Made by a program: the position numbers and the translations under genes
The notes under the pieces: generated by a model
Told to the model about the DNA's origin: nothing
Databases searched by the model: none
Seen by the model: only the letters and a program-made list of their open reading frames with translations
Part shown: positions 28,184 to 45,164 of the stretch, piece by piece
Position numbering within the stretch: position 1 is the first letter of the stretch
How the letters are laid out: every line of letters starts with the position of its first letter
Origin: a virus
Length of the DNA stretch: 64,000 nucleotides
Direction: 5' to 3' (one strand)
Virus record (IMG/VR): IMGVR_UViG_3300045988_165036
Location: 70,153-134,152 of that record

Positions 28184-28947
28184 TGGAAAAGAAAAAGAAT
28201 AAAGACAAAATCAGTTTCCGAGTAACTTCTGAATTTCTGAAAGCATACGACATTACCCTTGAAAAGGCAGCAAACTCTTTATATTACGAAAGCGACTTTC
28301 GCTGTCAATCATTTTATCCAATCGAGCATTCATTACCCTGTAACGACTGTCCTTTTCAACATTTGTCGGATTATTGTACCGATCCGTTTATTGAAGACGG
28401 AGCTGGCTATAAGCGTACCTTCGAGCAATGGCAAGATTGGTTTTATAAACTTACTGGAATTAAAGATAACCGATTAAAGGAGGCTTTTATGAAAAAGGAC
28501 GAAGAAGCAAAACAACCCAAGCAAGAAGCTCAAATCAACGCAGACAACACCGAAAAGGTTTCTTATCAAACCGCAAAAGAAATTGCTGGAAATTATACCC
28601 TTGGAAATATCGCAGATGTAGCACAAAATAATTTCAATCTATTCACCAAAGAATTGGAAGAGAAAGCAAACGCCAAATACGAAGTCGAATATACTACTCT
28701 CGACTCCGATGGGCCCAAAACACAATATGTCCGAAAGGTCAGTGATCTCCTTTCTCTTATCAAAGAGTGGAACAAAGAGGCAATTAAATGGAACTTGATC
28801 GCCAATGGAAATATCTCCAAAATCCCGACTAATTTCAAAGATATCTATATCAAAGTCTACGACCCCGAAGAAGGCGTTGCCCTCTTCCAAGACGAATACA
28901 CTCTCAAATCCAAAAGACTCAAGCTTGCTTGGACAAGAGACGACTAA
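28180..28947 (+). CDS. Hypothetical protein
   Basis: ATGA-type overlap. Confidence 0.5.
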   Translation: MMEKKKNKDKISFRVTSEFLKAYDITLEKAANSLYYESDFRCQSFYPIEHSLPCNDCPFQHLSDYCTDPFIEDGAGYKRTFEQWQDWFYKLTGIKDNRLKEAFMKKDEEAKQPKQEAQINADNTEKVSYQTAKEIAGNYTLGNIADVAQNNFNLFTKELEEKANAKYEVEYTTLDSDGPKTQYVRKVSDLLSLIKEWNKEAIKWNLIANGNISKIPTNFKDIYIKVYDPEEGVALFQDEYTLKSKRLKLAWTRDD

Positions 28948-28980
28948 CCCCTTTTCGGCCAATTAAACACCAATAATCAC

Positions 28981-29005
28981 AGGGCATCTTCGGGTGCCCT
29001 CTTCT
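28981..29005 (+). terminator. Hairpin AGGGCA..TGCCCT after the last + gene of the block
   Basis: 6-bp GC-rich stem; weak T-run. Confidence 0.4.
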
Positions 29006-29188
29006 CATATTACCCCATCCAATATTATCCTCCGGTCTTATATTTATCTGTCTCCATAGCCCTCAAAATCGATTCTATTGCCCATCCAATACCACAATTT
29101 TTATATCCACCAATTCGTACCATTATTCCCTTATCCTCCCTCCATTTTCCACCATTTCTCCCCACTTTTATCCATCCACCTCTTCCAT

Positions 29189-29218
29189 TGTGGAAAATGT
29201 GGAAAACCCTGTGGAAAA
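29189..29218 (+). repeat. Three direct TGTGGAAAA boxes (29189, 29198, 29210)
   Basis: Read directly. One mismatch from the DnaA-box complement TGTGGATAA. Confidence 0.8.
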
Positions 29219-29557
29219 CTTACTCAAAATACTCAATCACATTCAAATACTGTTTAATTATTGCTTAAATATCCAAGAAATACCCAGAAAACCCTCTCTA
29301 GACATCCTTTGTACACAAATCATCATACGATTGGGTGATCTTATTATGGGTTTTATTATAGTTTATAGTCAGAAGACCGTTGGATAGATTACTTTCAAGG
29401 ATCATATATATCTGGGGAACCAAGTTTCCCCAAACCCCTTCCTTTTGCCCGAAAAGACTCCGTCTTTTCTCCTCGTCCCCTCACTTCGTTCGGGTCGCCG
29501 TCAAACCGTTTTTCATTTATCGAACCTTACGGTTCTCAAATGAAGAAACCGTAAACG

Positions 29558-29566
29558 TGTGGATAA
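29558..29566 (+). promoter_or_regulatory. Perfect DnaA-box complement TGTGGATAA
   Basis: 9 of 9 match to the reverse complement of TTATCCACA. Confidence 0.5.
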
Positions 29567-29640
29567 TTTGTTTTTAAAGGAAAAGGAAAGGGCGATGTAT
29601 TTGTTATTGTAAATGTTTTGTTAATTATAGATTGAAGGGA

Positions 29641-29669
29641 TTGACAGGAAGTGGAAAGTATGATATAAT
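29641..29669 (+). promoter_or_regulatory. sigmaA-type promoter TTGACA-17-TATAAT
   Basis: Read directly. It is followed by an ORF-free leader of about 470 nt. Confidence 0.55.
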
Positions 29670-30144
29670 AGAGGTGAGTAGGGAAGAATGAGAGAATAGA
29701 AAACTGGTACAACCAGCGTATTAAAGTAAGAAGGTTTATATAATACGCTAAGTGGACCACTTTTTGAAATTAAGATTTGGTTAAAATTTATTGATTAATA
29801 AGATCGGTTTAATGCGTTGGTTAGAAGTGTATGTTTAAAGATTGTGTGTGTGAGTGTGTTGTAAATTATGTTGAAAACTCAGCATATTGGTTATCAGTAT
29901 ATTGGTTAAGTGAGTGAATTAAGTAAATTTATAAATTAGTCTATGGAGATTATATGAGGTTTGTGTAAGTTTGTAAGTTTTGATATGATCTTTTCTTTCA
30001 AAATGAAAGTAAAAAAATAAAAAGATCTTGATAACATGTGGTCATGTTTTATCTAATAATATTTAACATAATATCAACATTTAAATGTTATTTGAATGTT
30101 AACTATATAATACTAAATATAAAACTAAACAAGGAGGAACTTTA

Positions 30145-31650
30145 ATGAAATTATTAAACGATACTAAAAATAATGCCGATACTAGTAATACTGAAGATTT
30201 AGAAAGTTTGCTGAATGATTTTGATCGAACTCTAAATCCAAATGCAGATCATGCAGATCATAACAACATGCGATCAAACGATGTGCGGTTAGAAGACAAG
30301 AAACACAAAAACCCAAATTGGAGAAAAGAGAACGAGAATCTTTCGTGTTACGCTCTGTCAAGATATTCCAATGAACCGGAAGATGATTTTGATTATTTCG
30401 ATCTGAATGCTTCATTGAAACAAATTCAAAAAAATATCATTATATCAAAAAAGGCTGAAAGTTTAGATATTGATTTATCAAAATTGGAAACTAATCACTT
30501 GTATAAAAACTGGAAAGAAGTTTGTGCGGATTTAAAAATTTCTTATAATGGCAACGGTCGGAATACCATAGAACAAAAGAAAATTGTTTTGGAAAATACA
30601 AAATATGAAAAGTGTGGAAATTCATATATATTTTATGAAATCAATCCGAATTATAAAAACGAGTTTTCTAAAAATAATGAAGTTACAAGGGTCAATTGCG
30701 TGGAAGCCATATTATCAAATGTTTTTTCGTCCGCGAATAATCAGCCAATTGCCTTGACAGCAAAATGTTGGTTTGAACTTCTTGGGCTAGTTGATGAAAA
30801 TTATTCTCCGTATAATAAAGAAAATAAAAAACGGTTAATGGCAACCGTAGAAAAAGATATACAAGAATATGAAATGACGATTGAGGATGGTTCTCCGATT
30901 ATCAGCTCCGCTGTTAAAACATCAACCGATTTCTTTTATACTAATACACAGGCTCGATTCAAAGAAGCATTATTCAATGCCTTTGATTCTCTCCAAAAAA
31001 GAGGGGCAATTATAGTTGATACTGTTGTCGGAGGTTTCCCATTAACTAAAGAACAAGTGGAAACAATAAAGGGAGCGGTTGAAAAAGATCCAGATGTTTC
31101 AATATATGATTTGAATATAAGGCTAAAAAGACAGATGATGTCGCTCGGAAGTTTAAATACGAAATATCTTGAATGCGAAGAAGAGACATTAAAGGATTTA
31201 AAAATGAATCGAACGGATTTGAAAATATTACGCAAGAATCCGGGTTTAGCTAAAAAATATTATGGAAGACTTGGAATTAAAACTGCTCTAAAAATTGGGA
31301 TGATTTATATATCCAGATTTTTCATAGTTTATCCATATTCTGATAACTGTAAAAAAGTATTCAAGACCCAATCGCAAGACAAAGATGTTCGAGCTTATGT
31401 TAAATATTTAATGCAGAGAGGAATTTTTGAATCGGCTAAAAACAAGATGCTGAAAGCAGACGGAAAAGGCGATTTCGGAACAGATAAATTTCTTGTTGCT
31501 AATTCGTATTTAATTGAAAAATTAATTAAAGAAAATAGAGAAAATTCAGAAGAAATGGTGAAATTTGGTATGATAAATGCTCAAAGGTTCGAAAAAAATA
31601 TTTCGGATGTTTTGTATACAGATGATGTAAACGATGGAGGAGAAGAATGA
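30145..31650 (+). CDS. Hypothetical protein (501 aa), very AT-rich
   Basis: AAGGAGG RBS; no motif recognised. Confidence 0.6.
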   Translation: MKLLNDTKNNADTSNTEDLESLLNDFDRTLNPNADHADHNNMRSNDVRLEDKKHKNPNWRKENENLSCYALSRYSNEPEDDFDYFDLNASLKQIQKNIIISKKAESLDIDLSKLETNHLYKNWKEVCADLKISYNGNGRNTIEQKKIVLENTKYEKCGNSYIFYEINPNYKNEFSKNNEVTRVNCVEAILSNVFSSANNQPIALTAKCWFELLGLVDENYSPYNKENKKRLMATVEKDIQEYEMTIEDGSPIISSAVKTSTDFFYTNTQARFKEALFNAFDSLQKRGAIIVDTVVGGFPLTKEQVETIKGAVEKDPDVSIYDLNIRLKRQMMSLGSLNTKYLECEEETLKDLKMNRTDLKILRKNPGLAKKYYGRLGIKTALKIGMIYISRFFIVYPYSDNCKKVFKTQSQDKDVRAYVKYLMQRGIFESAKNKMLKADGKGDFGTDKFLVANSYLIEKLIKENRENSEEMVKFGMINAQRFEKNISDVLYTDDVNDGGEE

Positions 31651-32456
31651 TAGCAGAAAATTTAAGCAGCAAGCAATATATGCTAAAATACGGAATAAAT
31701 ATAGAGGTTGGTCATGTCTACAAAAATTTTTTAGAAGTTTTGGAAGCAGTCGGTCTTCCTGTAGAGCTTTCTCAAAGTAAAAGTAGTAAAAGAAGAATTG
31801 TAGAGAGTTTAAAAGAACACACTATTTATAGAAGATCGGGACAAAAGTGGGTGTTCCAAGAAAATAATTATGGAAAAATTAAAGAATTTCCAGAGTTAGA
31901 AGAAGGGGAGGCTCTTTTGCCATATGATGATCGAGGGATATATTACATTAGCAATTTTGGAAGAATCTGGAATAGAAAAAATCGTGAATGGATTTCGAAA
32001 TATGAATATAAGGGAAGATATAAAGTGAGTCTTTATAGCCATCCACATATATTATCAAGAGTTGTTGCTATAACATTTATTCCGAATCCAGATAATAAAC
32101 CAGAGGTAAACCATAAAGATGAAAATCCAAAAAATGATAGAGTAGATAATCTTGAGTGGGTAACAAGAAAAGAAAATTTAAATTATGGCACAAGAACTCA
32201 AAGAGCTTCTGAAACCAGAGCGAAAAATCATCCCGGGAGCGGTTTCAATAAAGGAATGTCTCCTTCAGAAGAGGTTAAACAAAAGATAAGAAACACAATT
32301 AAAGAGAAATATCCAGAAGGTTGGGGTTCTTGGAATAAAGGGAAAAATAGAAAAAGATCTTCAAATTTTAAACAAAAAGCGATTCAGAAAATCAAAACAT
32401 TAATTCTTCAATATAATATATCTTTCGAGGATATTTATCCGCCATCAGACATTTAA
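31647..32456 (+). CDS. HNH homing endonuclease
   Basis: NHKDENPKNDRVDNLEWVTRKEN. Confidence 0.7.
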   Translation: MIAENLSSKQYMLKYGINIEVGHVYKNFLEVLEAVGLPVELSQSKSSKRRIVESLKEHTIYRRSGQKWVFQENNYGKIKEFPELEEGEALLPYDDRGIYYISNFGRIWNRKNREWISKYEYKGRYKVSLYSHPHILSRVVAITFIPNPDNKPEVNHKDENPKNDRVDNLEWVTRKENLNYGTRTQRASETRAKNHPGSGFNKGMSPSEEVKQKIRNTIKEKYPEGWGSWNKGKNRKRSSNFKQKAIQKIKTLILQYNISFEDIYPPSDI

Positions 32457-32542
32457 CCGCTCCCAGTTCGCCTTCGTTTTCTTCTACTATCTCCCCTCAA
32501 AAAATTTTTTCAAAAAATCTCAAACTTTTTTCTCAAACCCCC

Positions 32543-32571
32543 TTGACAAAACGCATTTTATGTGCTATACT
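32543..32571 (+). promoter_or_regulatory. sigmaA-type promoter TTGACA-17-TATACT driving the RNA island
   Basis: Read directly. Confidence 0.6.
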
Positions 32572-32576
32572 ATAAG

Positions 32577-32960
32577 CGTGAAAGGGAGAGAGCATCGGTT
32601 CTCGAGTAGGGAGCGGTTCAAAGCCTAGTGATGCCCGACACTGACCGCTCCCGAAGGCTCCATCGGACTCCTTCTCACTACCTCCTTTTTCAAGGGTGAA
32701 CAAGTGGCCCTTTCCCATGCGTTCCCTTGACGGGTGTGGCTCCGGTTAAATGCGCTGATAGTTTTCATAGTAAACTCTTTTCAAACGCGACGCCGGTCTT
32801 GGTGATGCTTGATCGGTATGACAAAGCGGTCGGACGCTTGACGGTCGGGACAGACCGGCATCCTTTCTAAAGAGTGTTAATTCAGTCGGAAGAATCCCCT
32901 ACTCATAATAGGACAGTCGCTGGTTCGAAGCCTTGAATTACCACCATCATCAAAATTCAA
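32577..32960 (+). ncRNA. Structured, ORF-free RNA ending in an imperfect tRNA-like module (D-arm and CAU anticodon arm, defective T-arm, ..ACCA)
   Basis: Helices GGGAGCGGT/ACCGCTCCC and GCCGGTCT/AGACCGGC, three CGGT-N2-3-GAC repeats, then ATTCagtcggaaGAAT and CCTActcataaTAGG. Confidence 0.4.
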
Positions 32961-32982
32961 TAATCAAAGGAGAGACCTCCAA

Positions 32983-33156
32983 ATGTTACCAATTATCGTA
33001 TCCGCAGTTCTGTCTCTTGCCACAATCGGATTCCTGATTTGGTTCTGGGCACGAACTCCGAGCAATCTCACCAAGTGGTATTGCGTCCCGGTGACGCTCT
33101 TCGGAGTAGCGGCAATCCTCGCATTCTGGTTCTTCGTAGTTCTTCCGATTCTCTGA
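32983..33156 (+). CDS. Small two-TM membrane protein (57 aa), below the track cutoff
   Basis: AAAGGAGAG RBS; MLPIIVSAVLSLATIGFLIWFW... Confidence 0.45.
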   Translation: MLPIIVSAVLSLATIGFLIWFWARTPSNLTKWYCVPVTLFGVAAILAFWFFVVLPIL

Positions 33157-33214
33157 TTGAGATGGCTGTCGGGAAAGACCGACACTCGTATCCTCCGCAT
33201 TTGCGGTCGATTAT

Positions 33215-33296
33215 GGCTCCGTGGCGAAATCGGTAAACGCATCCGATTTAAGATCGGATACCTGTGGGTTTAAGGGTTCGAATCCCTTCGGAGCTA
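33215..33296 (+). tRNA. tRNA-Leu (anticodon UAA), class II with a long variable arm
   Basis: Hand-folded: acceptor GGCTCCG/CGGAGCT, anticodon arm TCCGA-TTTAAGA-TCGGA, variable stem ACC/GGT, T-arm AAGGG-TTCGAAT-CCCTT. Confidence 0.8.
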
Positions 33297-34160
33297 CATC
33301 GGATTGTTTTTTGAACAGAGTTTAACTTGTCAGGTCATAACTGACATCCGATTCCAAGACGCTTGATTGGCAGCCTTCCTTAGTCTCTAAATAGTAATGG
33401 AAGCGCCCGACTCCCACGGAAGAGTGGAGCAACCTCACAGAGGAACAGAAATCCGCCGCTGTGTTGGATAAGTGACCGACGTTGACTGAACCGTCTCGTA
33501 AAAATTTCAGTGACAGTCTGGAGAGACAGACATCCATATGGGTGGGTGGTACTGGGGAGTGCAGAACATCATGTTGTAGAAAGTTAGTTCGACTCTAACC
33601 TCATCCGCCAGCAGACCGGTAGCGTTAACACATTCACCGACTCCCGGCTCAAAAAAATGTGGGGTTCTTTCCAAGGGTTTCTTAGCCTCTAAAAGCAAAC
33701 CCGATTTTATCCCCTTCAGAAGGGATGCGGTCCCGTTCAAGTCGGGCGAGGGGTTTAGAGCGTCTGCAGACGTCGGAGTACCGGCTCTACCGTTAAGGAA
33801 CCGGTGTAGGGCACGCTGGAGAACAGAGTCATTGCCCAGCGTGTAGTGTAACGAAGATTGAGCAATGATGGCGTCTCGGAAAGACGAGAAGAATCCATAC
33901 GATGTGGGATGTTCCCCGTCGAAATATGTGAAATTCATAGCTTGAGCCGTTACAGTCGGAAAGTATTCATAGGCACTCCTCCACCTGTCGCACCCCAGAA
34001 ATGGACACGCGGAAAAGGGAGAAAAATCGCCGACCCGCTGCGGGCGGGAGCGGTTCCTGTAGCTGCCTAATTGCGGCTACTGCTAATGGCAGTCTGATCA
34101 ACTGCTAAGTTCGGTGCCTAAGGGGTTAAATGGGCGCGATGGCCGTCACAGCCGAAACAT
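33297..34160 (+). ncRNA. Large GC-rich structured RNA candidate between two tRNAs (possibly GOLLD/ROOL-class). The core is likely 33611-34160.
   Basis: No credible ORF. Hand-counted 60-nt lines give 62-63% G+C, against 27% in a hand-counted coding line (4201-4260). Many local helices, for example CACGCTGG/CCAGCGTG, GTAGCTGC/GCGGCTAC, CGTCT/AGACG. Confidence 0.5.
33540..33610 (+). ncRNA. tRNA-like minihelix (acceptor, D-arm, T-arm, encoded CCA) without a canonical anticodon stem
   Basis: GGGTGGG/CTCATCC acceptor (2 G.U pairs), GTTAG-TTCGACT-CTAAC T-arm, G-CCA end. The middle forms only AACA-tca-TGTT. Confidence 0.45.
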
Positions 34161-34237
34161 TGTCGAGTAGCCAAGCGGTAAAGGTGACTGGTTTTGACCC
34201 AGTTATTACGTAGATTCGAATCCTGCCTCGACAGCCA
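34161..34237 (+). tRNA. tRNA-Gln (anticodon UUG), CCA encoded
   Basis: Acceptor TGTCGAG/CTCGACA (U1:A72, as in E. coli tRNA-Gln), anticodon arm ACTGG-TTTTGAC-CCAGT, T-loop TTCGAAT with an A:C closing pair. Confidence 0.7.
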
Positions 34238-34355
34238 GCGGAGAATCTCCGCTTCTCCAAAGTATCTTCAGGGCACCCGCCTCATCAAGTCCGATCTTGA
34301 ATTGGAAACTGGTGGGACGGGTTGTTCCGTATAAAAAGAAAGGAAATCATTTCCA

Positions 34356-34835
34356 ATGGGCATCACTCTCAACATCAACGTAAATTCCCCTATATATAAT
34401 AAGACTCCGACCTATAAACCGCTCCCGCAACTCACTCGTCGTCAGAGATCGTTTTTCGAGTCGGCTAAAGCAGCATCTATTTTATCAGATCACCCGCATT
34501 TCCATCTTGGTTGTGCTATTGCAGAAGGCTCTCGTATCATCTCATCAGGACACAATTCCGTTACGCGATGTTCTTTAATCCAACGGGAACTCGACAATAA
34601 CCAATTTGGCGGAGAACACAGGGGAGCTTGCCACGCCGAGACAGCCGCGTTGCTCCCGCTTATTCGTCAGAGAATCGATTTGGCCTCTTGTACTGCATAT
34701 CTATATCGCTCCCACAAAGACGGTTCCATTGCTATTTCTCGCCCTTGTAGCCGGTGTATGAGCCTTATGCGAGCGGTTGGGATTCGACGAGTTTTTTTCA
34801 CAGTGGAAGGCGGATATGCTGTAGAAGATATTTAG
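34356..34835 (+). CDS. dCMP / cytidine deaminase-family zinc enzyme
   Basis: CHAE ... PCSRC motif pair. Confidence 0.7.
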   Translation: MGITLNINVNSPIYNKTPTYKPLPQLTRRQRSFFESAKAASILSDHPHFHLGCAIAEGSRIISSGHNSVTRCSLIQRELDNNQFGGEHRGACHAETAALLPLIRQRIDLASCTAYLYRSHKDGSIAISRPCSRCMSLMRAVGIRRVFFTVEGGYAVEDI

Positions 34836-34939
34836 AGAACGAGACATATTATCTGGGGACTAGATAACCTGATTATGATAATCATAGCAGGTTGTCTTCA
34901 CATATATTAACAAATTACTATAAAAGAAAGGAAAACATT

Positions 34940-37285
34940 ATGTTTCTAAAACGTCTTATCCAATTTTTATCTCAAATTGACAGTGCTATATCGTCAAAAG
35001 ACAGACAGCAGGCCGAAGAATTGCTGACGAAGTTATCCGAAGCATTACAAGCCGAGCCAGATCTGTCAGAGCAAACCAAGACGGCATTTCTTGCATGGAT
35101 GAGAACCATTCAAACCAAGCTTTATGGTTCTTCATCAAAAACAGGGACCGATACGGAATCCCCAACGGAGCCAGATGTATCAACTGACATAGGTCCTGAT
35201 TCTGATGCAGAAACAGAAGTTAAACCAGAGATACCAAAGCCAGATCCGGCTCCTGATGTTCGCACTCCAATTGCTCCCGAAATAACAAAAGACCCGTTTC
35301 ATTACGTAGAATTGTCTGCCACTGATGGCGACGCAAATAAGATTTCCCTACAGACCGCGCTTAATACTGGTACAGACATCAAAATTCGCATACCTGGCAC
35401 GTATCCTGTAACTCCGCCCGTGCTGATTAAGTCACAAACCCTTGATCTAAATAATTCTACCATTAAGTTGAATGGCCGAAAATATAAGGGCGCACTGTTC
35501 TTTTTGAGTGGAGAGCAGCCGTCTATTCAGAATGGAACAATTCAAGGTAGTTTTGACGAACCGGCAGTGCCACTTAGCGACCCGAATTTCTTTGAAGGCG
35601 AGTCACTTATTGGTCTATATTCCTATGCCTATTCTAACGCAAAAATTTCCAACTTAAAGCTCCATCATAGTTGGGGCTATGCCGTTTGTGAACGAACAAA
35701 CGCCGAGGCTGCTACACTTCTCGGTCTACCGGATGGGAATATTGCCGCAATGGCACGCTGCTATGTTTATCTTGACCGCACAATGACCAAGAAGGAGTCC
35801 AAACCCGGATATCTGGGTGGACAAATGTCAACTACGGCTACCGGCGATTATGTTTATGAAACCGCTAAAATGGATTTGACACCGGCGTTGTCTTCTATAG
35901 CACCTAAACTGCGCGGACCGCAAACAAATTACCAGTATATCTCTGCCTCCAACGGATTGGGCTACTTCCGCATTATTAGTGATCGGCGCATTGAATATGA
36001 GTTCACAGTACCAGGAGAGTCAGAACCGGTTTGTCGCACCGCCCTACAAGGCGAGGCAGTCCGTATTCCCGATGGCGCAATTGATGTCAGTGTTACCACT
36101 TATTGCAAGACATCTAACGCCAGTGATTGGAAGATTGGAGAAGGCGCGGATGTGCGCGATGTCGGTTATGTGATTTACCTGAGTAACCATGTTGGAGGAT
36201 TGGATGTCCAAAATTGTGAAATGTCGTTCAACTCCTCTTTAGGGATGTGCGGCACAAGTCTTGGTGCTACTTACGTAAAGAACTGTACCAGTATCGGCAA
36301 TGGGCGCTTAAACCGCGATTCAAAGCCATCTCACACAACTGTTGGGTTTATTGACATCGAAGACAACCCTACTTGTTTTGTCAGTTTGGAAAACATTACC
36401 AGTGATTTGGAGACGAACGGCGCAATGTTGGGCGCCGTTACGGCAAGTGTCAAAAATTGGCGTGGAAGTACAGTTATCATTTATCGCGGATTGAGTGCGT
36501 GGGTAGAAAATTCTGATGCATATATTGGACTGTTTAGCAACGATACTCCTACCGAACTAATTATCAGAAACAGCGTAATTCGAGGAATGACTATAAATAA
36601 ATTGCCGGATTCTGTTCAAACCGAACACTGTACGTTTTATAACTGTCCCGTGCGCACTGTTAATGATTCTGATGGAAAGTACATCTATTCAAACACATAT
36701 ACCAGCGCGGGCAGTGCGCTAACGGGCTTGGTGAATATTTCCTTAACAACTCCAGGCGGATGGAATAGTGCAGGCTTGTCTACGCCCGAGGGTTCCCATG
36801 CGCAACTATTCATCAATGGTTCTGAAGACACGCCACTTGGTAAATGGAAGCCGATGATAGCTACTGGAGATTGCTTTGGGCTACAAGTAGACGATACAAT
36901 TTATCCTAATGGATTTACTATTTATGGCGCTAAAATCGCGCCCGGACAGTACCGTCATCCTACTAAGGTAGACGCCATGTTTGGCGTATTTGAGGACTGT
37001 GATTTTGATTTGTCCAAGCGTGAATTTTGTACCGTAGGCAAACATATGTATGACAAGCCGCTGGAGTTTAATTCTTGTACCATTCACAATGCCAACAATC
37101 CGTTGTTTGGTAGAAATGGCACGGCGGCATTTGGTGTCGGAAAGGGTACGGTGATAGTGTTTAAAAATTGTACCATTGATAAGAAGGACAACATTTGTGT
37201 TACACGCGCAAATACTCCCGGTATTGCCACGTCCGGCGTCCCCACAATTGAGTTTATTGACTGTACTTTCGGGGATGGATCATAA
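34940..37285 (+). CDS. Large secreted or structural-type protein with a P/D/E/T-rich linker and a probable beta-helix (tailspike or depolymerase-like)
   Basis: PTEPDVSTDIGPDSDAETEVKPEIPKPDPAPDV linker, then repetitive N/G/T-rich strands. Visibly GC-richer than neighbours. Confidence 0.35.
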   Translation: MFLKRLIQFLSQIDSAISSKDRQQAEELLTKLSEALQAEPDLSEQTKTAFLAWMRTIQTKLYGSSSKTGTDTESPTEPDVSTDIGPDSDAETEVKPEIPKPDPAPDVRTPIAPEITKDPFHYVELSATDGDANKISLQTALNTGTDIKIRIPGTYPVTPPVLIKSQTLDLNNSTIKLNGRKYKGALFFLSGEQPSIQNGTIQGSFDEPAVPLSDPNFFEGESLIGLYSYAYSNAKISNLKLHHSWGYAVCERTNAEAATLLGLPDGNIAAMARCYVYLDRTMTKKESKPGYLGGQMSTTATGDYVYETAKMDLTPALSSIAPKLRGPQTNYQYISASNGLGYFRIISDRRIEYEFTVPGESEPVCRTALQGEAVRIPDGAIDVSVTTYCKTSNASDWKIGEGADVRDVGYVIYLSNHVGGLDVQNCEMSFNSSLGMCGTSLGATYVKNCTSIGNGRLNRDSKPSHTTVGFIDIEDNPTCFVSLENITSDLETNGAMLGAVTASVKNWRGSTVIIYRGLSAWVENSDAYIGLFSNDTPTELIIRNSVIRGMTINKLPDSVQTEHCTFYNCPVRTVNDSDGKYIYSNTYTSAGSALTGLVNISLTTPGGWNSAGLSTPEGSHAQLFINGSEDTPLGKWKPMIATGDCFGLQVDDTIYPNGFTIYGAKIAPGQYRHPTKVDAMFGVFEDCDFDLSKREFCTVGKHMYDKPLEFNSCTIHNANNPLFGRNGTAAFGVGKGTVIVFKNCTIDKKDNICVTRANTPGIATSGVPTIEFIDCTFGDGS

Positions 37286-37302
37286 ACAGTGATTATAAAT
37301 CA

Positions 37303-37345
37303 ATTCTACGGTCTGTACAATAAGTAAAACGCTTAGATTTCTAAA
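37303..37345 (+). repeat. Intergenic motif copy 1 (ATTCTAcGGTctGTACAaTAAGTAAAA..)
   Basis: Aligns to 37845-37888. Confidence 0.7.
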
Positions 37346-37525
37346 TTTTTATCAATGGATGTATAAACTATACCCATAACAAACTATGTCCTAAAATCTA
37401 ATACTTTATCAATAAAAAAGGAGGTACTTTTCAATTTTTATAAAGAAAATATCCAGTCCCTTTCTTTCACCGGAATTTCAACTGACGAGCAAGAAACGGT
37501 TATTATATTTGGTCGAAACGGTGAT

Positions 37526-37810
37526 ATGGCTTCTGTAGAAACGACCGACTCTACAGTTCTTACGAAACTCAAAAAGTGTACTGATACAAGCCCCGACATA
37601 TATGAGCAAACCGTCGAATGGGTGCTTACAAACGTAACAACCAGTCCGAATGAATCTGACCCAACAAAAATCACATCTATTTGTTTTAAATGCCCTAAGA
37701 AACTTGTTTCTCTTAGGTTAAAGTCTGCCGTTCCAAGAGAATTGACAGATGAAGAGAGAGCAGAAATTGCGGAGCGCATGAGGGGCATTCGGAGAAACAA
37801 AGAAGATTAA
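37526..37810 (+). CDS. Hypothetical protein. The true start is uncertain because the frame is open from the RBS at 37417.
   Basis: ORF from the track. Confidence 0.45.
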   Translation: MASVETTDSTVLTKLKKCTDTSPDIYEQTVEWVLTNVTTSPNESDPTKITSICFKCPKKLVSLRLKSAVPRELTDEERAEIAERMRGIRRNKED

Positions 37811-37844
37811 AACAGTACAGGACCACATAGATGTCCCCACAATC

Positions 37845-37888
37845 GATTCTAAGGTTCGTACAGTAAGTAAAATACTGTAAATTTCAGA
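37845..37888 (+). repeat. Intergenic motif copy 2 (ATTCTAaGGTtcGTACAgTAAGTAAAA..)
   Basis: Aligns to 37303-37345. Confidence 0.7.
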
Positions 37889-37977
37889 AACAAGTTGTTT
37901 GGGGTATTATCTTGTACCCCAAACAAATAAACTTTCAAAATCATTATTAAATCAATGAAAAAAGGAGATATTTTGCC

Positions 37978-38304
37978 ATGAAGTATTATTCAGAAGTTCT
38001 TAACAAAAATTTCGACACCGTTGAAGACCTTGAGACTGCCGAGAAAAGAGAAAAGGAAAGAGTTATTGTGAAAACAAAAGAGGATGCGGCTCTAAAAGCA
38101 GAAATTGATGCCGCCAAGAAAATTCGTGATGATGCTAAGGCCGATTATTGTACCGCTCTTAATGCGTGTCATGAAGCTTTGTCTCGATGGAATGAGGCAG
38201 AAAAGAAACTGAGCGATGTGGAAGCAAAAAATAGATCTGTTATGGGTTCACCTAAAACAAGCGATGAACTTAAAAGACTTATAGAGAAATGGTTTTTTAT
38301 TTGA
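37978..38304 (+). CDS. Hypothetical coiled-coil protein
   Basis: AAGGAGA RBS; K/E/A-rich heptad-like sequence. Confidence 0.55.
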   Translation: MKYYSEVLNKNFDTVEDLETAEKREKERVIVKTKEDAALKAEIDAAKKIRDDAKADYCTALNACHEALSRWNEAEKKLSDVEAKNRSVMGSPKTSDELKRLIEKWFFI

Positions 38305-38334
38305 AGTTTTAGTACATAAAAATATATTATGTTT

Positions 38335-38368
38335 AAAAAAGGGCAATCCCATCGGACTGCCCTTTTTT
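38335..38368. terminator. Bidirectional intrinsic terminator, AAAAAAGGGCA..TGCCCTTTTTT
   Basis: Stem flanked by an A-run and a T-run at the convergence point. Confidence 0.7.
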
Positions 38369-38405
38369 ATGTGCCGCCGCGTTGCGGGGTTGGGCAACAA
38401 AAATA

Positions 38406-38456
38406 AAATTTTGGTTCTGGAAAATTTTGGGCGCGGCAAGCAAATTTTGGGCGCGG
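38406..38456 (+). repeat. Tandem units of about 20 nt, AAATTTTGG(G/T)(C/T)(G/C)(C/T)GG (two exact copies and one degenerate)
   Basis: AAATTTTGGGCGCGG at 38422 and 38442; AAATTTTGGTTCTGG at 38406. Confidence 0.75.
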
Positions 38457-38663
38457 TTCTATGAAAGGGGGCGGGTGGGAAAAATAGGCGGGCGCCGCGT
38501 AAAAGAAAAAATTATGCCCCGCCCTTTAAAAAAAATATCGCCCAGCGACATAATGATCCCTCTCGGATTTTTTAATTTGGTGTCGGGATCAAGACACCGG
38601 GAAGCTTTAGGGTTTGCTTCCCTCAAAATTATTTTCCCATCTTTCCGACGTCACCAAAAGGCG

Positions 38664-38706
38664 GGGCTGGGATAGCACCTGATAACGCTCAGATGCTTCA
38701 GGAAGC
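38664..38706 (-). repeat. Conserved hairpin element, copy B
   Basis: GGGCTGGGAT + AGCACCTGA-TAACGC-TCAGATGCT. See copy A at 44825. Confidence 0.75.
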
Positions 38707-39040
38707 GTAGAAATAGAAGAAACACGGTTTTCTTTATTTGCGGATGACCGTAAACCCAAACGGCTTTCACTTCATCTTAACTCACTTTATCTCAACGATG
38801 AAGTTCGATGAAAGCAAGAACAAAACATAAAAAAAAGACAATGCCAAAGGCACTCATTGCATCACCTCCTTTCTACTTCTCTACTTCGAAAAATAGAACA
38901 TCAGAAAGAAATAGATGGCAGATAAAACCCAGAACACAATTGCTTCAATCTTTCCACACATTTCTTTCGAGTCTTTCCAACATCGTCGAACCAAAAGCCC
39001 CAAAACCAGTAGAAGTATCATTAGCTTTCATCACCTCCTT

Positions 39041-40512: not shown

Positions 40513-40650
40513 ATTTTTCCTTTCTGCCTGGTTTTGCCGCCGGGCGCAGCTTTTCTAAAATTCTTATATTCCAAACTCTATTATACCGTTTTTTCCATGT
40601 TGATTTGTCTGTTGTAGCAAAGTCTCATTGTTTCGCTTCCTCAATACTTT

Positions 40651-40935
40651 TCACTGATTGTAATCAGCATATTTTTTCATAAGTCTCAAAAATTCAAAGG
40701 CTGCTTTTCCGTTCGGAGCGATGAGCCTTATATATTCAGGCTTTTCGATAATCTTAAACTCCAGCTCGTCAGCAAGCGAGAATGCCATCTTGTCGGAAGT
40801 CATCAAATGACCTTCCCGCTTCCAGAAAAGCCGCCGCTTGTCAACTTTCCAGTAAATTCCGTGATATTCGAGCGGAGTACCGTTCTTCGTCATGTCGAAC
40901 GGTACCAAGAAGAATGCGATTTTTTCGTTTTTCAT
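40651..40935 (-). CDS. Hypothetical protein
   Basis: ORF from the track. Confidence 0.5.
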   Translation of the reverse strand: MKNEKIAFFLVPFDMTKNGTPLEYHGIYWKVDKRRLFWKREGHLMTSDKMAFSLADELEFKIIEKPEYIRLIAPNGKAAFEFLRLMKKYADYNQ

Positions 40936-40996
40936 TTTTCTTTCCTTTCTCCCCCGTCAAGCCGATAGGACAACTAATTGTTAAATTTTTGTTAAT

Positions 40997-41137
40997 TCAG
41001 AACGGTAATGTGTCGCAACTCAAATGCCTGTCAAGCCAGTCGTAGGTCTTCGGAAAGCGATCCATCATCCAAGCCCAGAAATGTCTTCTTCTGCGTTTTT
41101 TCCGAGTCTCAATTGCACTTTGCCTTTGTTTCTTCAT
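40997..41137 (-). CDS. Small basic protein (46 aa), below the track cutoff
   Basis: ATGA overlap with the upstream gene; GGAGGG RBS; MKKQRQSAIETRKKRRRRH. Confidence 0.45.
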   Translation of the reverse strand: MKKQRQSAIETRKKRRRRHFWAWMMDRFPKTYDWLDRHLSCDTLPF

Positions 41138-41487
41138 ATCTTTCCCTCCTTTCTCAATTCGTTAAAATTCTTCATTGTCGTATATTTCCAACCGTCGCAG
41201 TCAGTCATATACCAAATGATAACCGGGTTATTGTCTTTGTCAAGTGCCACTCCTTTGAACTGTAAAGCCAAGTCGTCGTTGCTTCTTGCGTCTACGTTCG
41301 TGTTCCAGATTGCGGCATATTCTCCACTCGAAGTGTAAGGAAGTCCGTAGGTCAGTTCGACGTTCCTCTCACGCTTTCCGTGAACAATCCGCAGACTTTT
41401 GTCGAGCCATTTCACTGCGGCAACGGCAATCTTGTACTGATTTTTGTAGTCGGTCCATTCTCTTACTTCATTCGGATAAATTTCCAT
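41134..41487 (-). CDS. Hypothetical protein
   Basis: ORF from the track. Confidence 0.5.
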   Translation of the reverse strand: MEIYPNEVREWTDYKNQYKIAVAAVKWLDKSLRIVHGKRERNVELTYGLPYTSSGEYAAIWNTNVDARSNDDLALQFKGVALDKDNNPVIIWYMTDCDGWKYTTMKNFNELRKEGKI

Positions 41488-41559
41488 TTTGGAATTCCTT
41501 TCTTCGGTTTTATTGAGGTTATCCGAAAACTCATAATTTTTTAGTTTCGTAGCTATAAT

Positions 41560-41853
41560 TCAGTCAATGTTGTCGAACACGTCAGTCGCAATTGCCTGCT
41601 TCGAGTCCGCTGTCACGCAGACTCCACGGCACCGGTCGTAATTGTTGTCGAGGAAGAAGATATATTCTTCGCCGTTGCTGTAAACAGCGTATTCTACGCC
41701 CTTCCATCCACTGTTTGCATGTTTAACGGTGGGGGAGACATATCTCTCCACAAATGCGCTCTTCGAGAGTTGGCATTCGCTCATTTCACGGAAATGAAGT
41801 TCCTTAAATCCCTTTTCCTCGAGATCGTGCGGGTAAACTTTGTTCTGTTTCAT
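41560..41853 (-). CDS. Hypothetical protein
   Basis: ORF from the track. Confidence 0.5.
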   Translation of the reverse strand: MKQNKVYPHDLEEKGFKELHFREMSECQLSKSAFVERYVSPTVKHANSGWKGVEYAVYSNGEEYIFFLDNNYDRCRGVCVTADSKQAIATDVFDNID

Positions 41854-41870
41854 TGTTTTATTCTCCTTTT

Positions 41871-42047
41871 TTAATCTTCGGCTTCATAAACTTCTGTTGT
41901 AGCATCTACGATTTTTCCGTAAGAGTAGTCGAAGTCTCCACTTTCTTGCGTTTCCTTAAATTTTTCCTTTGCCTCATTTTCATCATTGGCCTCTACATAA
42001 AAAGTATGAGACAAAATTTCTTTGTAAATAACAACGTAGGTCTTCAT
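41871..42047 (-). CDS. Hypothetical small acidic protein
   Basis: Internal ATG (MKTYVVIYKE), chosen to avoid overlap with 42097-42564. Confidence 0.45.
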   Translation of the reverse strand: MKTYVVIYKEILSHTFYVEANDENEAKEKFKETQESGDFDYSYGKIVDATTEVYEAED

Positions 42048-42096
42048 AGTTTTATCCTTTCTGCTCGTTTGATGGTCGAATCGCCCAACCAATTGT

Positions 42097-44477: not shown

Positions 44478-44478
44478 T

Positions 44479-44766: not shown

Positions 44767-44824
44767 AGAGAAACTCCTTTCTGCACTTTACCCTGTGCAA
44801 CGGGAAATATGCCCTTGGTGTTTA

Positions 44825-44867
44825 GGGCTGGGATGGCGCTCGATAACGCTCGAACGCCTCAGAGAGC
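44825..44867 (-). repeat. Conserved hairpin element, copy A
   Basis: GGGCTGGGAT + GGCGCTCGA-TAACGC-TCGAACGCC. Same loop and flank as copy B, with four compensatory stem changes. Confidence 0.75.
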
Positions 44868-44878
44868 AAGTTTGAGAA

Positions 44879-45064: not shown

Positions 45065-45164
45065 AAAGTAATCCTTTCTGGGTTTTCCTCTGTAATCCAC
45101 GTTGGGTGTCTTGGAAAGCCCACGAAAAAAAATGGTACAAAACCAAATATACATTCTTGTATCA

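What the first reader, a model, noticed from the sequence alone, without database searches (positions are those of the whole stretch)
33297..34160. ORF-free, GC-rich, heavily base-paired RNA candidate of 0.55-0.86 kb between tRNA-Leu and tRNA-Gln (GOLLD/ROOL-like context)
The track shows only short antisense-looking ORFs between tRNA-Leu (ends 33296) and tRNA-Gln (starts 34161). Composition jumps here. Hand counts of 33721-33780 and 34021-34080 give 37/60 and 38/60 G+C, against 16/60 in a hand-counted coding line (4201-4260). Many stable local helices are visible: TGTCAG/CTGACA, GTCTG/CAGAC, CACGCTGG/CCAGCGTG, CGTCT/AGACG, CCCGC/GCGGG and GTAGCTGC/GCGGCTAC. The region lies downstream of a strong promoter at 32543 and in the same orientation as the tRNAs. 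Giant ornate RNAs such as GOLLD and ROOL are known to sit in phages and prophages next to tRNAs, sometimes with an embedded tRNA. The stretch after the embedded tRNA-like element (33611-34160, 550 nt) is about ROOL size. I cannot assign the family from memory of its consensus. It could equally be a new class.
Basis: partly seen in the sequence, partly recalled or inferred. Interest (0 to 1): 0.8.

Follow-up and report, generated by a model that had tools for sequence, protein, structure and literature searches.

The report
Shuffled phage tRNA and tRNA-mimic cassette array
The flagged stretch is real, conserved non-coding RNA in a human-gut phage, but it is not one giant GOLLD/ROOL-type RNA: it is a string of small structured RNA cassettes, including a tRNA look-alike with no anticodon, separated by a recurring hairpin and reshuffled between related phages.

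Summary
Several helices show compensatory changes in related phages.

No Rfam family matches, GOLLD and ROOL included. Folding energy is barely better than shuffled sequence (z -1.75).

About 40 related human-gut phage loci show the interval is the distal part of a 1.7-kb array (32543-34252). It runs from one strong sigma-70 promoter to a dCMP deaminase gene.

The array is built from 40-190-nt modules that are gained, lost, duplicated and sometimes reordered between phages. Non-tRNA modules end in a covarying hairpin ("J": TGACA, 5-bp stem, G-R-N-A-G-A loop). The 5' end of a tRNA or tRNA-like element usually follows 6-8 nt later.

One module (33540-33610) is a cloverleaf with G3:U70 and an encoded CCA, but its anticodon arm is replaced by a short triloop hairpin.

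The closest known analogue is the T4 tRNA cluster, which carries co-transcribed stable RNAs and a homing endonuclease. Function is unknown; I favour RNase P/Z-processed tRNAs plus tRNA mimics serving as counter-defence.

The parts
31647..32456 (+). Free-standing HNH homing-endonuclease gene directly upstream of the array
   Evidence: It matches PHROG HNH endonuclease families. The gene is present at this position in only some related loci, and is absent or a remnant in others. A second HNH ORF lies inside or after the array in L026.
32543..32571 (+). Sigma-70-type promoter of the array (TTGACA, 17 nt, TATACT, extended TG)
   Evidence: It is the best promoter match in 31500-35500, 11 of 12. The promoter plus leader is conserved in essentially all related arrays.
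32575..32843 (+). Leader RNA module m1
   Evidence: It is conserved at 78-96% in most related arrays, but only its first ~100 nt (75-80%) is detectable in the most distant loci (L015, L019, L032). It has no ORF and is always the first module after the promoter. Its structure was not analysed further.
32844..32859 (+). J hairpin 1 (GTCGG GACAGA CCGGC), preceded by TTGACG
32876..32946 (+). Degenerate tRNA-Met(CAU)-like element with a CCACCA tail
   Evidence: It is found only with relaxed ARAGORN settings. ARAGORN calls a standard tRNA-Met at the same position in L005, L006, L025 and L033.
32983..33156 (+). ORF57, a small hydrophobic protein gene embedded in the RNA array
   Evidence: It has a good Shine-Dalgarno sequence, is conserved in 13 distinct protein variants, and its substitutions by codon position are 54/9/68, as expected for coding sequence.
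33167..33184 (+). J hairpin 2 (TGTCGG GAAAGA CCGACA)
33215..33297 (+). tRNA-Leu(UAA)
   Evidence: ARAGORN and Rfam tRNA at 62.7 bits.
33298..33404 (+). Module m4: trailer with an outer stem UCGGAU/AUCCGA enclosing UGUCAG-GUCAUAA-CUGACA (33328-33346). The inner hairpin looks like a tRNA-Met anticodon arm.
Evidence: It is shared with L003, L004, L040 and others. Compensatory changes occur in the inner hairpins of L004.
33405..33510 (+). Module m5: spacer RNA whose sequence is almost invariant
   Evidence: It is nearly identical in 11 distinct loci. That includes genomes whose deaminase is only 53-56% identical in protein: 96.9% nt to L015 and about 90% to L019. A 19-mer from it finds 21 further metagenome contigs.
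33516..33531 (+). J hairpin 3 (GTCTG GAGAGA CAGAC), followed by AUCCAUAU and then the tRNA-like element
33540..33610 (+). Module m6: anticodon-less tRNA mimic. It has a 7-bp acceptor stem with G3:U70, a D arm, a T arm (GUUAG-UUCGACU-CUAAC), discriminator G, and an encoded CCA. A 4-bp stem with a UCA triloop replaces the anticodon arm.
   Evidence: Default ARAGORN and the Rfam tRNA model do not call it. The cloverleaf stems are 100% paired in 9 distinct homologues, with compensatory changes at 4:69, 5:68, 6:67 and in the T stem. G3:U70 is kept in 12 of 14 distinct copies, A73 in 10 of 14, and CCA in 10 of 14.
33611..33703 (+). Module m7: two hairpins after the tRNA mimic
   Evidence: It is shared at 90-95% with L005, L019, L026, L033 and L039, with too little variation to test covariation. 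A weak JUMPstart/ops-like match at 33609-33626 (E 0.79) is probably chance.
33711..33753 (+). Module m8: acceptor/T-arm-like minihelix (CCCCUU ... CCCG-UUCAAGU-CGGG ... GAGGGG)
   Evidence: It is present in 19 of 30 loci. Some copies carry the compensatory pair CCCUCU/AGAGGG. In L041/L042 it starts exactly 8 nt after a J hairpin, the position a tRNA normally takes.
33758..33871 (+). Module m9: hairpins CGUCUGCAGACG, ACCGG..CCGGU and CACGCUGG..CCAGCGUG
   Evidence: In the first 30 loci it is shared only with L015-L018 (80.6% identity), where it lies after, not before, the homologue of 33905-34032. It is also present in metagenome loci L053, L054, L064 and L066. Compensatory changes occur in two hairpins.
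33874..33889 (+). J hairpin 4 (TCTCG GAAAGA CGAGA)
   Evidence: In L015 and L066 the same m9+J unit is followed by an intrinsic terminator.
33900..33969 (+). Module m10: boundary hairpin J' (GAUGUGGGA-UGU-UCCCCGUC) plus two small hairpins with 7-nt loops
   Evidence: It is optional: absent in L001, L029, L031 and L041-44. The J' sequence recurs at another block boundary in relatives. One stem is CCG/CGG in most copies and UCG/CGA in L006.
33970..34160 (+). Module U: a 190-nt multi-hairpin RNA ending 4 nt before tRNA-Gln. It consists of a long irregular hairpin pairing UCCUC with GAGGA, then CCCGC/GCGGG, GUAGCUG/CGGCUAC, GCAGU-CUGAUCA-ACUGC, and a 3' domain closed by UUCGG/CCGAA.
   Evidence: Its 51 pairs are 97.4% paired in 11 sequences. 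Eight cells changed on both sides against 3.0 in shuffles, reached by 0 of 500 shuffles. CCCGC/GCGGG alternates with CCCAC/GUGGG, CCUAC/GUAGG and UCCGC/GCGGA. Whole sub-domains are swapped or expanded between loci. The window copy has a 5-nt deletion that removes the UCGGU-GCC-ACCGA hairpin. U is absent from several arrays: L019, L032, L048 and L066.
34161..34237 (+). tRNA-Gln(UUG) with encoded CCA
   Evidence: ARAGORN and Rfam at 52.6 bits. In L003, L005 and L006 it is replaced by a Gln-anticodon tRNA-like element with a non-canonical T loop.
34238..34252 (+). Hairpin GCGGAG-AAU-CUCCGC followed by UUCUCC: a weak terminator-like end of the array
   Evidence: This was read directly from the sequence. 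The terminator scan does not call it.

Best explanation
The interval is the distal two-thirds of a 1.7-kb non-coding operon of tRNAs, tRNA mimics and small RNAs (32543-34252). It belongs to an uncultivated human-gut phage, probably one that infects Bacillota.

Shown: one strong host-type promoter heads the operon. The operon is a chain of small modules: two canonical tRNAs (Leu-UAA, Gln-UUG), degenerate or mimic tRNAs, hairpin-cluster spacer RNAs and one tiny membrane-protein ORF. In the window four non-tRNA modules (m1, the ORF57 segment, m5, m9) end in a covarying hairpin, J. A tRNA or tRNA-like 5' end usually follows 6-8 nt later (AYYCAUAU|G); in the window this holds cleanly only for J3, the other three gaps being 16, 30 and 10 nt. 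Module content is hypervariable among related phages, while the frame (promoter plus leader at one end, deaminase at the other) is fixed.

Inferred: the array is transcribed early by host RNA polymerase as one precursor. RNase P then cuts at each tRNA or tRNA-like 5' end, and RNase Z or exonucleases trim the 3' ends. This tRNA punctuation would release the tRNAs, the anticodon-less mimic (possibly chargeable with alanine) and spacer RNAs. The spacer RNAs would have 3' ends capped by J.

Further inferred: the mosaic pattern arises by recombination at the repeated J and J' junctions and at tRNA-like sequences, probably stimulated by the adjacent free-standing HNH endonucleases.

Most speculative step: the varying repertoire serves counter-defence. 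Real tRNAs would replace cleaved host tRNAs. Anticodon-defective mimics and spacer RNAs would act as decoys or sponges for host tRNA-directed nucleases, toxins or tRNA-handling enzymes.
For: Promoter and common orientation.

Non-coding status.

Modular mosaic: homology breakpoints are sharp at 32870, 33185, 33405, 33510-33530, 33608, 33705, 33753, 33768, 33890, 33905, 33970, 34030, 34082 and 34166. About 40 different module architectures sit in a constant frame. Modules are reordered in L003, L015 and L026.

Conservation: modules are 85-97% identical in nucleotides between genomes whose flanking deaminase is only 53-56% identical in protein.

J hairpin: it occurs 4 times in the array and nowhere else in the 64-kb window. 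There are 29 distinct instances with at least 9 different stems but a fixed loop and flanks. Pairs are 138 Watson-Crick, 7 G.U on the + strand and 0 A.C. Covariation exceeds all 500 shuffles. Of 57 distinct J contexts, 20 have a recognised tRNA or tRNA-like start exactly 8 nt downstream. Most of the remainder have unrecognised tRNA-like sequences at 6-8 nt.

tRNA mimic.

Compensatory changes in the m8, m9 and U helices.

End of the unit: terminators directly follow the last cassette in L015 and L066.

Precedent: the T4 tRNA cluster is a ~1.75-kb primary transcript. It yields eight tRNAs, the species I and II RNAs and the segB homing-endonuclease mRNA (PMC2330249). SegB-type endonucleases are associated with phage tRNA genes and drive amplification of anti-defence tRNAs (PMC13096335).

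Leader sequence, from my own knowledge rather than a test here: U at -1 and A at -4 match reported leader preferences of bacterial RNase P.
Against: There are no expression or end-mapping data, so co-transcription, RNase P/Z processing and stability of the spacer RNAs are all inferred.

J instances were collected with a pattern that required at least 4 of 5 pairs, so the 100% pairing is partly by construction.

In the window itself two of the four J hairpins are not followed by a clean tRNA. J1 precedes a degenerate tRNA-Met-like element 16 nt away. J4 precedes the non-tRNA module m10.

tRNA-Gln has no J. It is preceded by the closing helix of module U.

G3:U70 is not universal (12 of 14 copies), and the window copy has G73 rather than A73.

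Nothing ties any module to a defence system.

High nucleotide identity could reflect recent horizontal transfer rather than selection.
Confidence: 0.6

Rival explanations
1. A single large ornate RNA of a new class, analogous to GOLLD or ROOL. It would span roughly m8 to U (33711-34160 here, 550-1700 nt in relatives). It would have conserved ends and a hypervariable middle or linker, and would fold as one unit and perhaps multimerise.
For: The order m8 ... m10-U-tRNA-Gln is kept in most loci, and in most of them this stretch contains no J hairpin and no called tRNA. The minimal arrays L041/L042 are essentially leader-J-[m8...U]-tRNA-Gln. GOLLD has a conserved 3' region, a variable 5' region and sometimes tRNAs in its linker, and it sits in phage tRNA islands (PMC12286853).
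Against: No Rfam family matches, even at E<=10. Blocks inside this stretch are reordered between loci: L003 differs from L001, L005, L006, L026 and L042. m9 lies on either side of m10/Ua. U and m8 are each missing from several arrays. Sub-domains of U are swapped wholesale. No long-range pairing survives these swaps. The first alifold proposal for a long-range closing helix breaks in 2 of 6 sequences and is incompatible with the alternative 3' domain. MFE is not better than shuffled sequence. A further tRNA-like element and J'-type boundary hairpins lie inside the 'middle'.
Confidence: 0.1
2. A graveyard of decayed tRNA genes and recombination scars. Only the canonical tRNAs and ORF57 would be functional. 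The rest would be remnants carried along and homogenised by homing-endonuclease-driven gene conversion between co-infecting phages.
For: Many pieces look like tRNA parts: an anticodon-arm-like hairpin at 33328-33346, T-arm-like hairpins in m8 and m10, and a degenerate tRNA-Met at 32876. HNH genes flank or invade the array. The window copy of U carries a hairpin-destroying 5-nt deletion. High identity between otherwise distant genomes fits recent transfer.
Against: Non-tRNA helices keep pairing through compensatory changes: J, m6, m8, m9 and U. m5 is nearly invariant while the tRNA-like element beside it diverges, 96.9% against 84.7% to L015. The mimic m6 keeps intact acceptor, D and T arms and CCA in 14 distinct versions, yet never regains a normal anticodon arm. 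The J loop and flanks are invariant across at least 9 stem variants.
Confidence: 0.2
3. The J motifs act at the DNA level. They could be promoters for a phage RNA polymerase that start transcription exactly at tRNA +1. They could also be recognition or recombination sites for the HNH endonuclease or another enzyme. Under this view cassettes are expressed or moved individually.
For: The motif is long (about 30 bp from TGACA to ATAT) and ends directly at the first base of the downstream tRNA, as T7-class promoters do at +1. Hairpin promoters are known from phage N4 (my own knowledge, not tested here). J copies coincide with homology breakpoints.
Against: All 7 non-Watson-Crick stem pairs are G.T on the + strand and none is A.C. 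That is what an RNA hairpin in the + transcript predicts. It is the opposite of what a template-strand hairpin promoter predicts. Double-stranded recognition would not require covarying stems. No phage RNA polymerase was looked for or identified in the window. Breakpoints at J are equally explained by homologous recombination between repeated sequences.
Confidence: 0.07
4. A protein-coding gene hidden by sequencing errors, for example the 143-aa antisense ORF at 33507-33938.
For: The minus-strand frame stays open over the 349 nt aligned in L026 and L039.
Against: There is no Pfam hit. Substitutions are depleted at codon position 3 (109/118/66). Indels among homologues are mostly 1, 2, 4 or 5 nt. 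Homology breakpoints cut the ORF into four independently distributed modules.
Confidence: 0.01

Closest known systems
Phage T4 tRNA gene cluster, with the species I and II stable RNAs and the segB homing endonuclease
   Same: It is one promoter-driven precursor of about 1.7 kb carrying several tRNAs, non-tRNA stable RNAs of unknown function and an embedded small mRNA. A free-standing homing endonuclease is associated with it. Gene content varies between related phages (PMC2330249; PMC13096335).
   Different: There is no sequence or Rfam relationship. Here canonical tRNAs are the minority. There is a dedicated covarying hairpin 6-8 nt upstream of tRNA starts. There are tRNA mimics with defective anticodon arms. 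Mosaicism is much finer, at 40-190 nt. The endonuclease is HNH rather than GIY-YIG. Expression and processing are not shown here.
GOLLD (RF01998) and ROOL (RF03087) large ornate RNAs
   Same: They are phage-encoded, non-coding, located in or next to tRNA islands, of unknown function, and can have a tRNA inside or adjacent (PMC12286853).
   Different: Neither covariance model matches, even at E<=10. There is no fixed large architecture. Modules shuffle, swap and drop out. The largest coherent unit is about 190-255 nt.
tRNA mimics and tRNA punctuation: the tmRNA tRNA-like domain, bacterial YrlA RNAs, MALAT1 mascRNA, and mitochondrial tRNA punctuation (my own knowledge, not tested here)
   Same: These are tRNA-shaped elements without decoding function that are recognised by RNase P, RNase Z or the CCA-adding enzyme, or that define processing sites in a longer transcript. 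tmRNA also uses G3:U70 for alanylation without an anticodon.
   Different: m6 is a contiguous 71-nt cloverleaf with a triloop hairpin where the anticodon arm should be. ARAGORN does not call it as tmRNA and no Rfam family matches. Charging and processing are untested.
Phage tRNAs as counter-defence against tRNA-cleaving immunity, for example T6 tRNA-Tyr against Septu
   Same: This is a variable phage tRNA locus next to a homing endonuclease. Its content changes quickly in the way expected of an arms-race locus (PMC13096335).
   Different: No defence system, target or phenotype is known here. Several elements cannot decode at all.

Membership tests
GOLLD RNA (Rfam RF01998) | Match to the family covariance model | tested here: not met
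   No GOLLD match was found at gathering score in the window or in L001-L006. None was found at E<=10 in 32300-34500 or at E<=5 in the 3.8-kb L005 array.
GOLLD RNA (Rfam RF01998) | [quoted passage not shown] | tested here: not met
   The 3' unit U is about 190 nt, has interchangeable sub-domains, and is absent from several arrays. Blocks are reordered between loci.
GOLLD / ROOL | Encoded in phages or prophages near tRNA islands | tested here: met
   PHROG annotations are phage-type. The locus lies between tRNA-Leu and tRNA-Gln.
GOLLD / ROOL | Homo-oligomeric nanocage (14-mer or 8-mer) | not testable with these tools
   This needs SEC or cryo-EM of the transcript.
ROOL RNA (Rfam RF03087) | Match to the family covariance model, with its ~580-nt multi-pseudoknot architecture | tested here: not met
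   No ROOL match was found in the same searches. No conserved long-range or pseudoknot pairing was found.
Phage tRNA gene cluster with co-transcribed stable RNAs (T4 type) | Several tRNA genes in one orientation behind one promoter | tested here: met
   The window has two canonical tRNAs and two or three tRNA-like elements on the + strand behind the 32543 promoter. Relatives carry up to 5 canonical tRNAs.
Phage tRNA gene cluster with co-transcribed stable RNAs (T4 type) | Non-tRNA stable RNAs made from the same precursor | tested here: inconclusive
   Structured, covarying non-tRNA modules are present. There are no transcript data.
Phage tRNA gene cluster with co-transcribed stable RNAs (T4 type) | Free-standing homing endonuclease gene in or beside the cluster | tested here: met
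   An HNH gene lies at 31647-32456. Its presence varies among relatives, and L026 has a second HNH ORF.
Canonical tRNA (tested for element 33540-33610) | Acceptor, D and T stems of a cloverleaf | tested here: met
   All 16 pairs are 100% paired in 9 distinct sequences, and 4 pairs show compensatory change.
Canonical tRNA (tested for element 33540-33610) | A 5-bp anticodon stem with a 7-nt loop, and detection by tRNA models | tested here: not met
   A 4-bp stem with a 3-nt loop (UCA or AAG) takes its place. Default ARAGORN and Rfam tRNA at E<=10 do not call it.
Alanine-accepting tRNA-like RNA (AlaRS identity set) | G3:U70 wobble pair in the acceptor stem, A73 and a CCA end | tested here: inconclusive
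   G3:U70 is present in 12 of 14 distinct copies, including the window, while neighbouring pairs covary. A73 is present in 10 of 14, but the window has G73. CCA is present in 10 of 14. Charging itself cannot be tested here.
tmRNA | tRNA-like domain plus a tag reading frame, as detected by ARAGORN or Rfam | tested here: not met
   ARAGORN found no tmRNA and Rfam found no tmRNA match.
Protein-coding gene | A conserved open frame with a third-position substitution bias and indels in multiples of 3 | tested here: not met
   ORF57 in the same array passes this test and serves as a contrast.

The most novel reading that the evidence does not exclude
The array is a fast-evolving RNA counter-defence island. 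It would hold a diversified library of tRNA mimics whose anticodon arms are deleted or deformed. Examples are the anticodon-less m6, which may be chargeable with alanine, the 6-nt-loop cloverleaves in relatives, and the m8 minihelix. It would also hold hairpin-capped spacer RNAs. These would be released from one precursor at a dedicated punctuation hairpin (J) and would act as decoys for host tRNA-directed nucleases, toxins or tRNA-handling enzymes. Adjacent HNH endonucleases would drive cassette exchange between co-infecting phages. The near-invariant m5 would then be either an endonuclease target or an RNA that works through its primary sequence.
Probability: 0.25. Interest if true: 0.8.

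Novelty: new variant of a known kind. Interest (0 to 1): 0.55.

Why it matters
Phage tRNA islands are usually read as codon-usage helpers or, more recently, as replacements for host tRNAs cut by immune nucleases. In this locus most of the island is not decodable tRNA.

It holds conserved, covarying tRNA mimics and small structured RNAs, arranged as exchangeable cassettes behind a shared hairpin. If these RNAs are made and processed as proposed, phages would diversify RNA decoys much as they diversify anti-defence proteins.

The locus would also supply a compact natural punctuation signal for multi-RNA operons. It further warns that G+C-rich, ORF-free stretches beside phage tRNAs are not automatically giant ornate RNAs.

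Tried and rejected
Rfam at gathering and permissive thresholds was run on the window, on sub-regions and on related arrays. It found only tRNAs and chance-level hits to AdoCbl-II, JUMPstart and snoRNA models.

BLAST of the region against GenBank phages found no match.

MFE z-scores are not informative.

A first RNAalifold model of 33903-34162 proposed a long-range closing helix. I rejected it because it breaks in L001/L004 and cannot form with the alternative 3' domain.

The genome-contig scan with the m8 core returned only two unrelated GC-rich MAG hits, so no host or prophage clue emerged.

The viral contigs pattern scans returned only the six contigs already found through the deaminase.

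Deaminase homologues P0061 (L021-L024) lie in an unrelated context and were dropped.

ARAGORN at very low thresholds over-calls and was used only as a pointer.

I considered and set aside the following for lack of any supporting feature or model hit: RNase P RNA, T-box, group I intron, retron, CRISPR-like array and integron attC analogies.

No covariance model was built. nhmmer, MAFFT and pair counting were enough, and the 265-position model was likely to exceed the calibration limit.
Full report
**1. What is in the window**

The window is phage DNA. PHROG hits include a DNA polymerase, an exonuclease V/Dda-like helicase, an HNH endonuclease and a dCMP deaminase. It has no nucleotide match in GenBank phages. 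The nearest cultured relatives of its RecD-like helicase are Thomasclavelia ramosa and SPbeta-like phages, at 29-36% identity. Related contigs come from human-gut metagenomes.

ARAGORN and Rfam place tRNA-Leu(UAA) at 33215-33297 and tRNA-Gln(UUG) at 34161-34237. The interval is 51.0% G+C against a window mean of 38.7%, which is the 99.5th percentile. The raised G+C covers the whole of 32580-34240 (50.8%), and the downstream genes are also 45-47%. The only strong promoter nearby is at 32543, TTGACA-17-TATACT.

**2. It is not coding**

The only sizeable ORF is antisense (33507-33938, 143 aa) and has no Pfam hit. Its substitutions among homologues are depleted at codon position 3 (109/118/66). 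Indels among homologues are mostly 1, 2, 4 or 5 nt.

A 57-codon ORF at 32983-33156, in the same array but outside the flagged interval, behaves differently. It is conserved as a hydrophobic peptide and shows a coding substitution pattern of 54/9/68.

**3. It is not a known RNA family, and energy gives no signal**

cmscan against Rfam 15 found only tRNAs and two RAGATH-18 copies elsewhere in the window. Permissive searches were run on 32300-34500, on 33530-33770 and on the longest related array. They gave nothing for GOLLD, ROOL or any other large RNA. Related loci gave only tRNAs.

MFE z-scores are -1.75 on the + strand, -1.36 on the - strand, and -0.36 for 33905-34160 alone. The case for structure therefore rests on comparative data.

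**4. Relatives show a cassette array**

Relatives were fetched in three ways:
- the downstream deaminase in IMG/VR gave six loci, L001-L006;
- exact-protein look-ups of deaminase homologues at 53-92% identity gave further loci;
- a 19-mer from the locus gave 21 metagenome contigs.

All share the same frame. A 400-500-aa protein gene comes first, sometimes followed by an HNH gene. Then come the promoter and leader, a gene-poor stretch of 1.3-3.8 kb, and the deaminase.

Inside the frame, homology to the window is cut into blocks with sharp, recurrent breakpoints. Almost every locus has a different set of blocks and tRNAs. Several kinds of rearrangement occur:
- In L015-L017, L026 and L045 the tRNA-like block precedes the 33405-33531 block.
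- In L015 and L064 the homologue of 33768-33890 lies after the homologue of 33905-34032.
- The order of blocks between m8 and U differs in L003 from that in L001, L005, L006, L026 and L042.

Blocks are 85-97% identical in nucleotides between genomes whose deaminases are only 53-56% identical in protein. Block 33405-33510 is almost invariant. A single conserved tertiary fold cannot tolerate this behaviour. An array of semi-independent units can.

**5. The punctuation hairpin**

One hairpin recurs at 32844-32859, 33167-33184, 33516-33531 and 33874-33889, and nowhere else in the 64 kb. It has a 5-6-bp G+C-rich stem and a G-R-N-A-G-A loop.

Across loci there are 29 distinct versions. The left flank (TGACA/TGGCR) and the loop are fixed, but at least nine different stems occur. 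All stems are paired: 138 Watson-Crick pairs, 7 G.U on the + strand and no A.C. Covariation exceeds all 500 shuffles and all slid controls. One caveat applies: instances were collected with a pattern that required at least 4 of 5 pairs.

The G.U-only asymmetry points to an RNA hairpin in the + transcript. It argues against a template-strand DNA hairpin.

The hairpin ends each non-tRNA module. About 8 nt follow it (consensus AYYCAUAU), and then comes the first base of a tRNA or tRNA-like element. Of 57 distinct contexts, 20 have a recognised tRNA or tRNA-like start exactly 8 nt downstream. Most of the rest have unrecognised tRNA-like sequences at 6-8 nt. Two are followed by intrinsic terminators at the end of the array.

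A second boundary hairpin, GACG[CU]GGGA-UGU-UCCCCGUC, starts module m10 (33900) and another block in relatives.

**6. The tRNA-like element**

Element 33540-33610 starts 8 nt after the third hairpin. Its acceptor, D and T stems are fully paired in nine distinct homologues. Compensatory changes occur at 4:69, 5:68, 6:67 and in the T stem.

The anticodon arm is replaced by a 4-bp stem with a triloop, in two sequence versions that both keep this shape. tRNA models therefore miss it.

Pair 3:70 is G.U in 12 of 14 distinct copies. The discriminator is A in 10 of 14, though it is G in the window. CCA is encoded in 10 of 14. G3:U70 is the main AlaRS identity element and, in tmRNA, works without an anticodon (established knowledge, not tested here). 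The element may therefore be an alanine-accepting mimic, but this is unproven.

Relatives carry other deformed tRNAs, for example a perfect cloverleaf with a 6-nt anticodon loop. Module m8 (33711-33753) is an acceptor/T-arm-like minihelix with compensatory variants. In L041/L042 it sits exactly where a tRNA would, 8 nt after a J hairpin.

**7. The remaining modules**

- m4 (33298-33404) contains a tRNA-Met-like anticodon arm.
- m9 (33758-33871) has three hairpins, two with compensatory changes relative to L015.
- U (33970-34160) is the largest coherent unit, at 190 nt, and ends 4 nt before tRNA-Gln.

The five hairpin domains of U are 97.4% paired in 11 sequences. Covariation is modest but above control: 8 doubly changed cells against 3.0 expected, reached by 0 of 500 shuffles. 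The helix CCCGC/GCGGG also appears as CCCAC/GUGGG, CCUAC/GUAGG and UCCGC/GCGGA. One hairpin is replaced by an 80-nt insert in some loci. The interior of the 3' domain, closed by UUCGG/CCGAA, exists in two unrelated versions.

The window copy has a 5-nt deletion that removes one conserved hairpin. U is missing from some arrays.

**8. Mechanism**

Three things are shown: the architecture, the covariation and the hypervariability. The rest is inferred.

I infer that the 32543 promoter drives one ~1.7-kb precursor. RNase P cuts at each tRNA or tRNA-like 5' end, and the U(-1)/A(-4) leader fits known preferences (my own knowledge). 3' processing then releases tRNAs, mimics and spacer RNAs, and the spacer RNAs have 3' ends protected by the J hairpin.

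This is the logic of the T4 tRNA cluster. There a ~1.75-kb transcript yields eight tRNAs, the species I and II RNAs and the segB mRNA (PMC2330249).

The fine mosaic is best explained by recombination at the repeated junctions. The free-standing HNH genes that come and go at the array edges probably promote it. SegB does this for T-even tRNA regions, including amplification of anti-defence tRNAs (PMC13096335).

A counter-defence role for the non-decoding RNAs is a hypothesis only.

**9. Verdict**

The GOLLD/ROOL reading is not supported as family membership, and is unlikely as a single-large-RNA architecture. A residual version, m8 to U acting as one variable RNA, gets about 10%.

The locus is a new variant of a known kind, the phage tRNA cluster with co-transcribed stable RNAs. 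It has three features I could not find described:
- the J punctuation hairpin;
- an anticodon-less, G3:U70 tRNA mimic;
- cassette-level hypervariability.

Interest is moderate.

Noticed in passing
window 2701-2773 and 62609-62670 (+): Two RAGATH-18 RNA matches above the Rfam gathering score (69.4 and 55.8 bits) lie far from the array.
   Followed up: no
window 32983-33156 (+): A 57-aa hydrophobic ORF with a good ribosome-binding site sits inside the RNA array. It is conserved in most related arrays and shows a coding substitution pattern. The L063 copy has two in-frame stops.
   Followed up: partly
window 31647-32456; L026 4129-4866; L015 1897-2691; L019 1497-2306: HNH endonuclease genes are variably present at the upstream edge of the array. 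In L026, L028, L030 and L051 one lies between tRNA-Gln and the deaminase. Remnants of 30-60 aa remain in some loci.
   Followed up: partly
window 33405-33510: Module m5 is almost invariant across phages that are otherwise very divergent, and is more conserved than the neighbouring tRNA-like element. This suggests a constraint on primary sequence, such as a base-pairing target, a protein site or an endonuclease site. No explanation was found.
   Followed up: partly
window 33609-33626: A weak JUMPstart/ops-like match (CAGCAGA..CGGUAGCGUU, E 0.79). Relatives have CGGCAGCGUU, so it is probably chance.
   Followed up: partly
window 33977-34027: In module U an anti-Shine-Dalgarno-like UCCUCC pairs with a Shine-Dalgarno-like GGGAG(G)A. 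No start codon follows.
   Followed up: no
window 34113-34121 compared with L001-L006: The window copy of U lacks 5 nt (ACCGA) that form the conserved hairpin UCGGU-GCC-ACCGA in all other v1-type copies.
   Followed up: yes
L003 ~3786-3853; L005 and L006 ~3197-3265: In these loci tRNA-Gln is replaced by a Gln-anticodon (UUG) tRNA-like sequence with a non-canonical T loop (GGCAGCA). ARAGORN does not call it.
   Followed up: partly
L015 4835-4899; L019 4244-4299: A second copy of the array's promoter-like sequence lies directly upstream of the deaminase in the more distant relatives. In L015 it follows a terminator that ends the array.
   Followed up: partly
L003, L002, L005, L006 and L015 (e.g. 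L003 2561-2631): A perfect cloverleaf with a 6-nt anticodon loop (GCUUAU), which ARAGORN calls 'tRNA-??? (tt)', is 92-99% identical between distant genomes.
   Followed up: partly
window 9402-11682, 14300-16433, 20000-22000, 28947-30145, 37285-38808, 40600-42100, 44477-46319: These stretches have no ORF of 120 aa or more. They may hold many small genes or further non-coding regions.
   Followed up: no
L026 10235-10480: An IS605 OrfB/TnpB (Cas12f-like) gene fragment lies about 5 kb downstream of the array in one relative.
   Followed up: no
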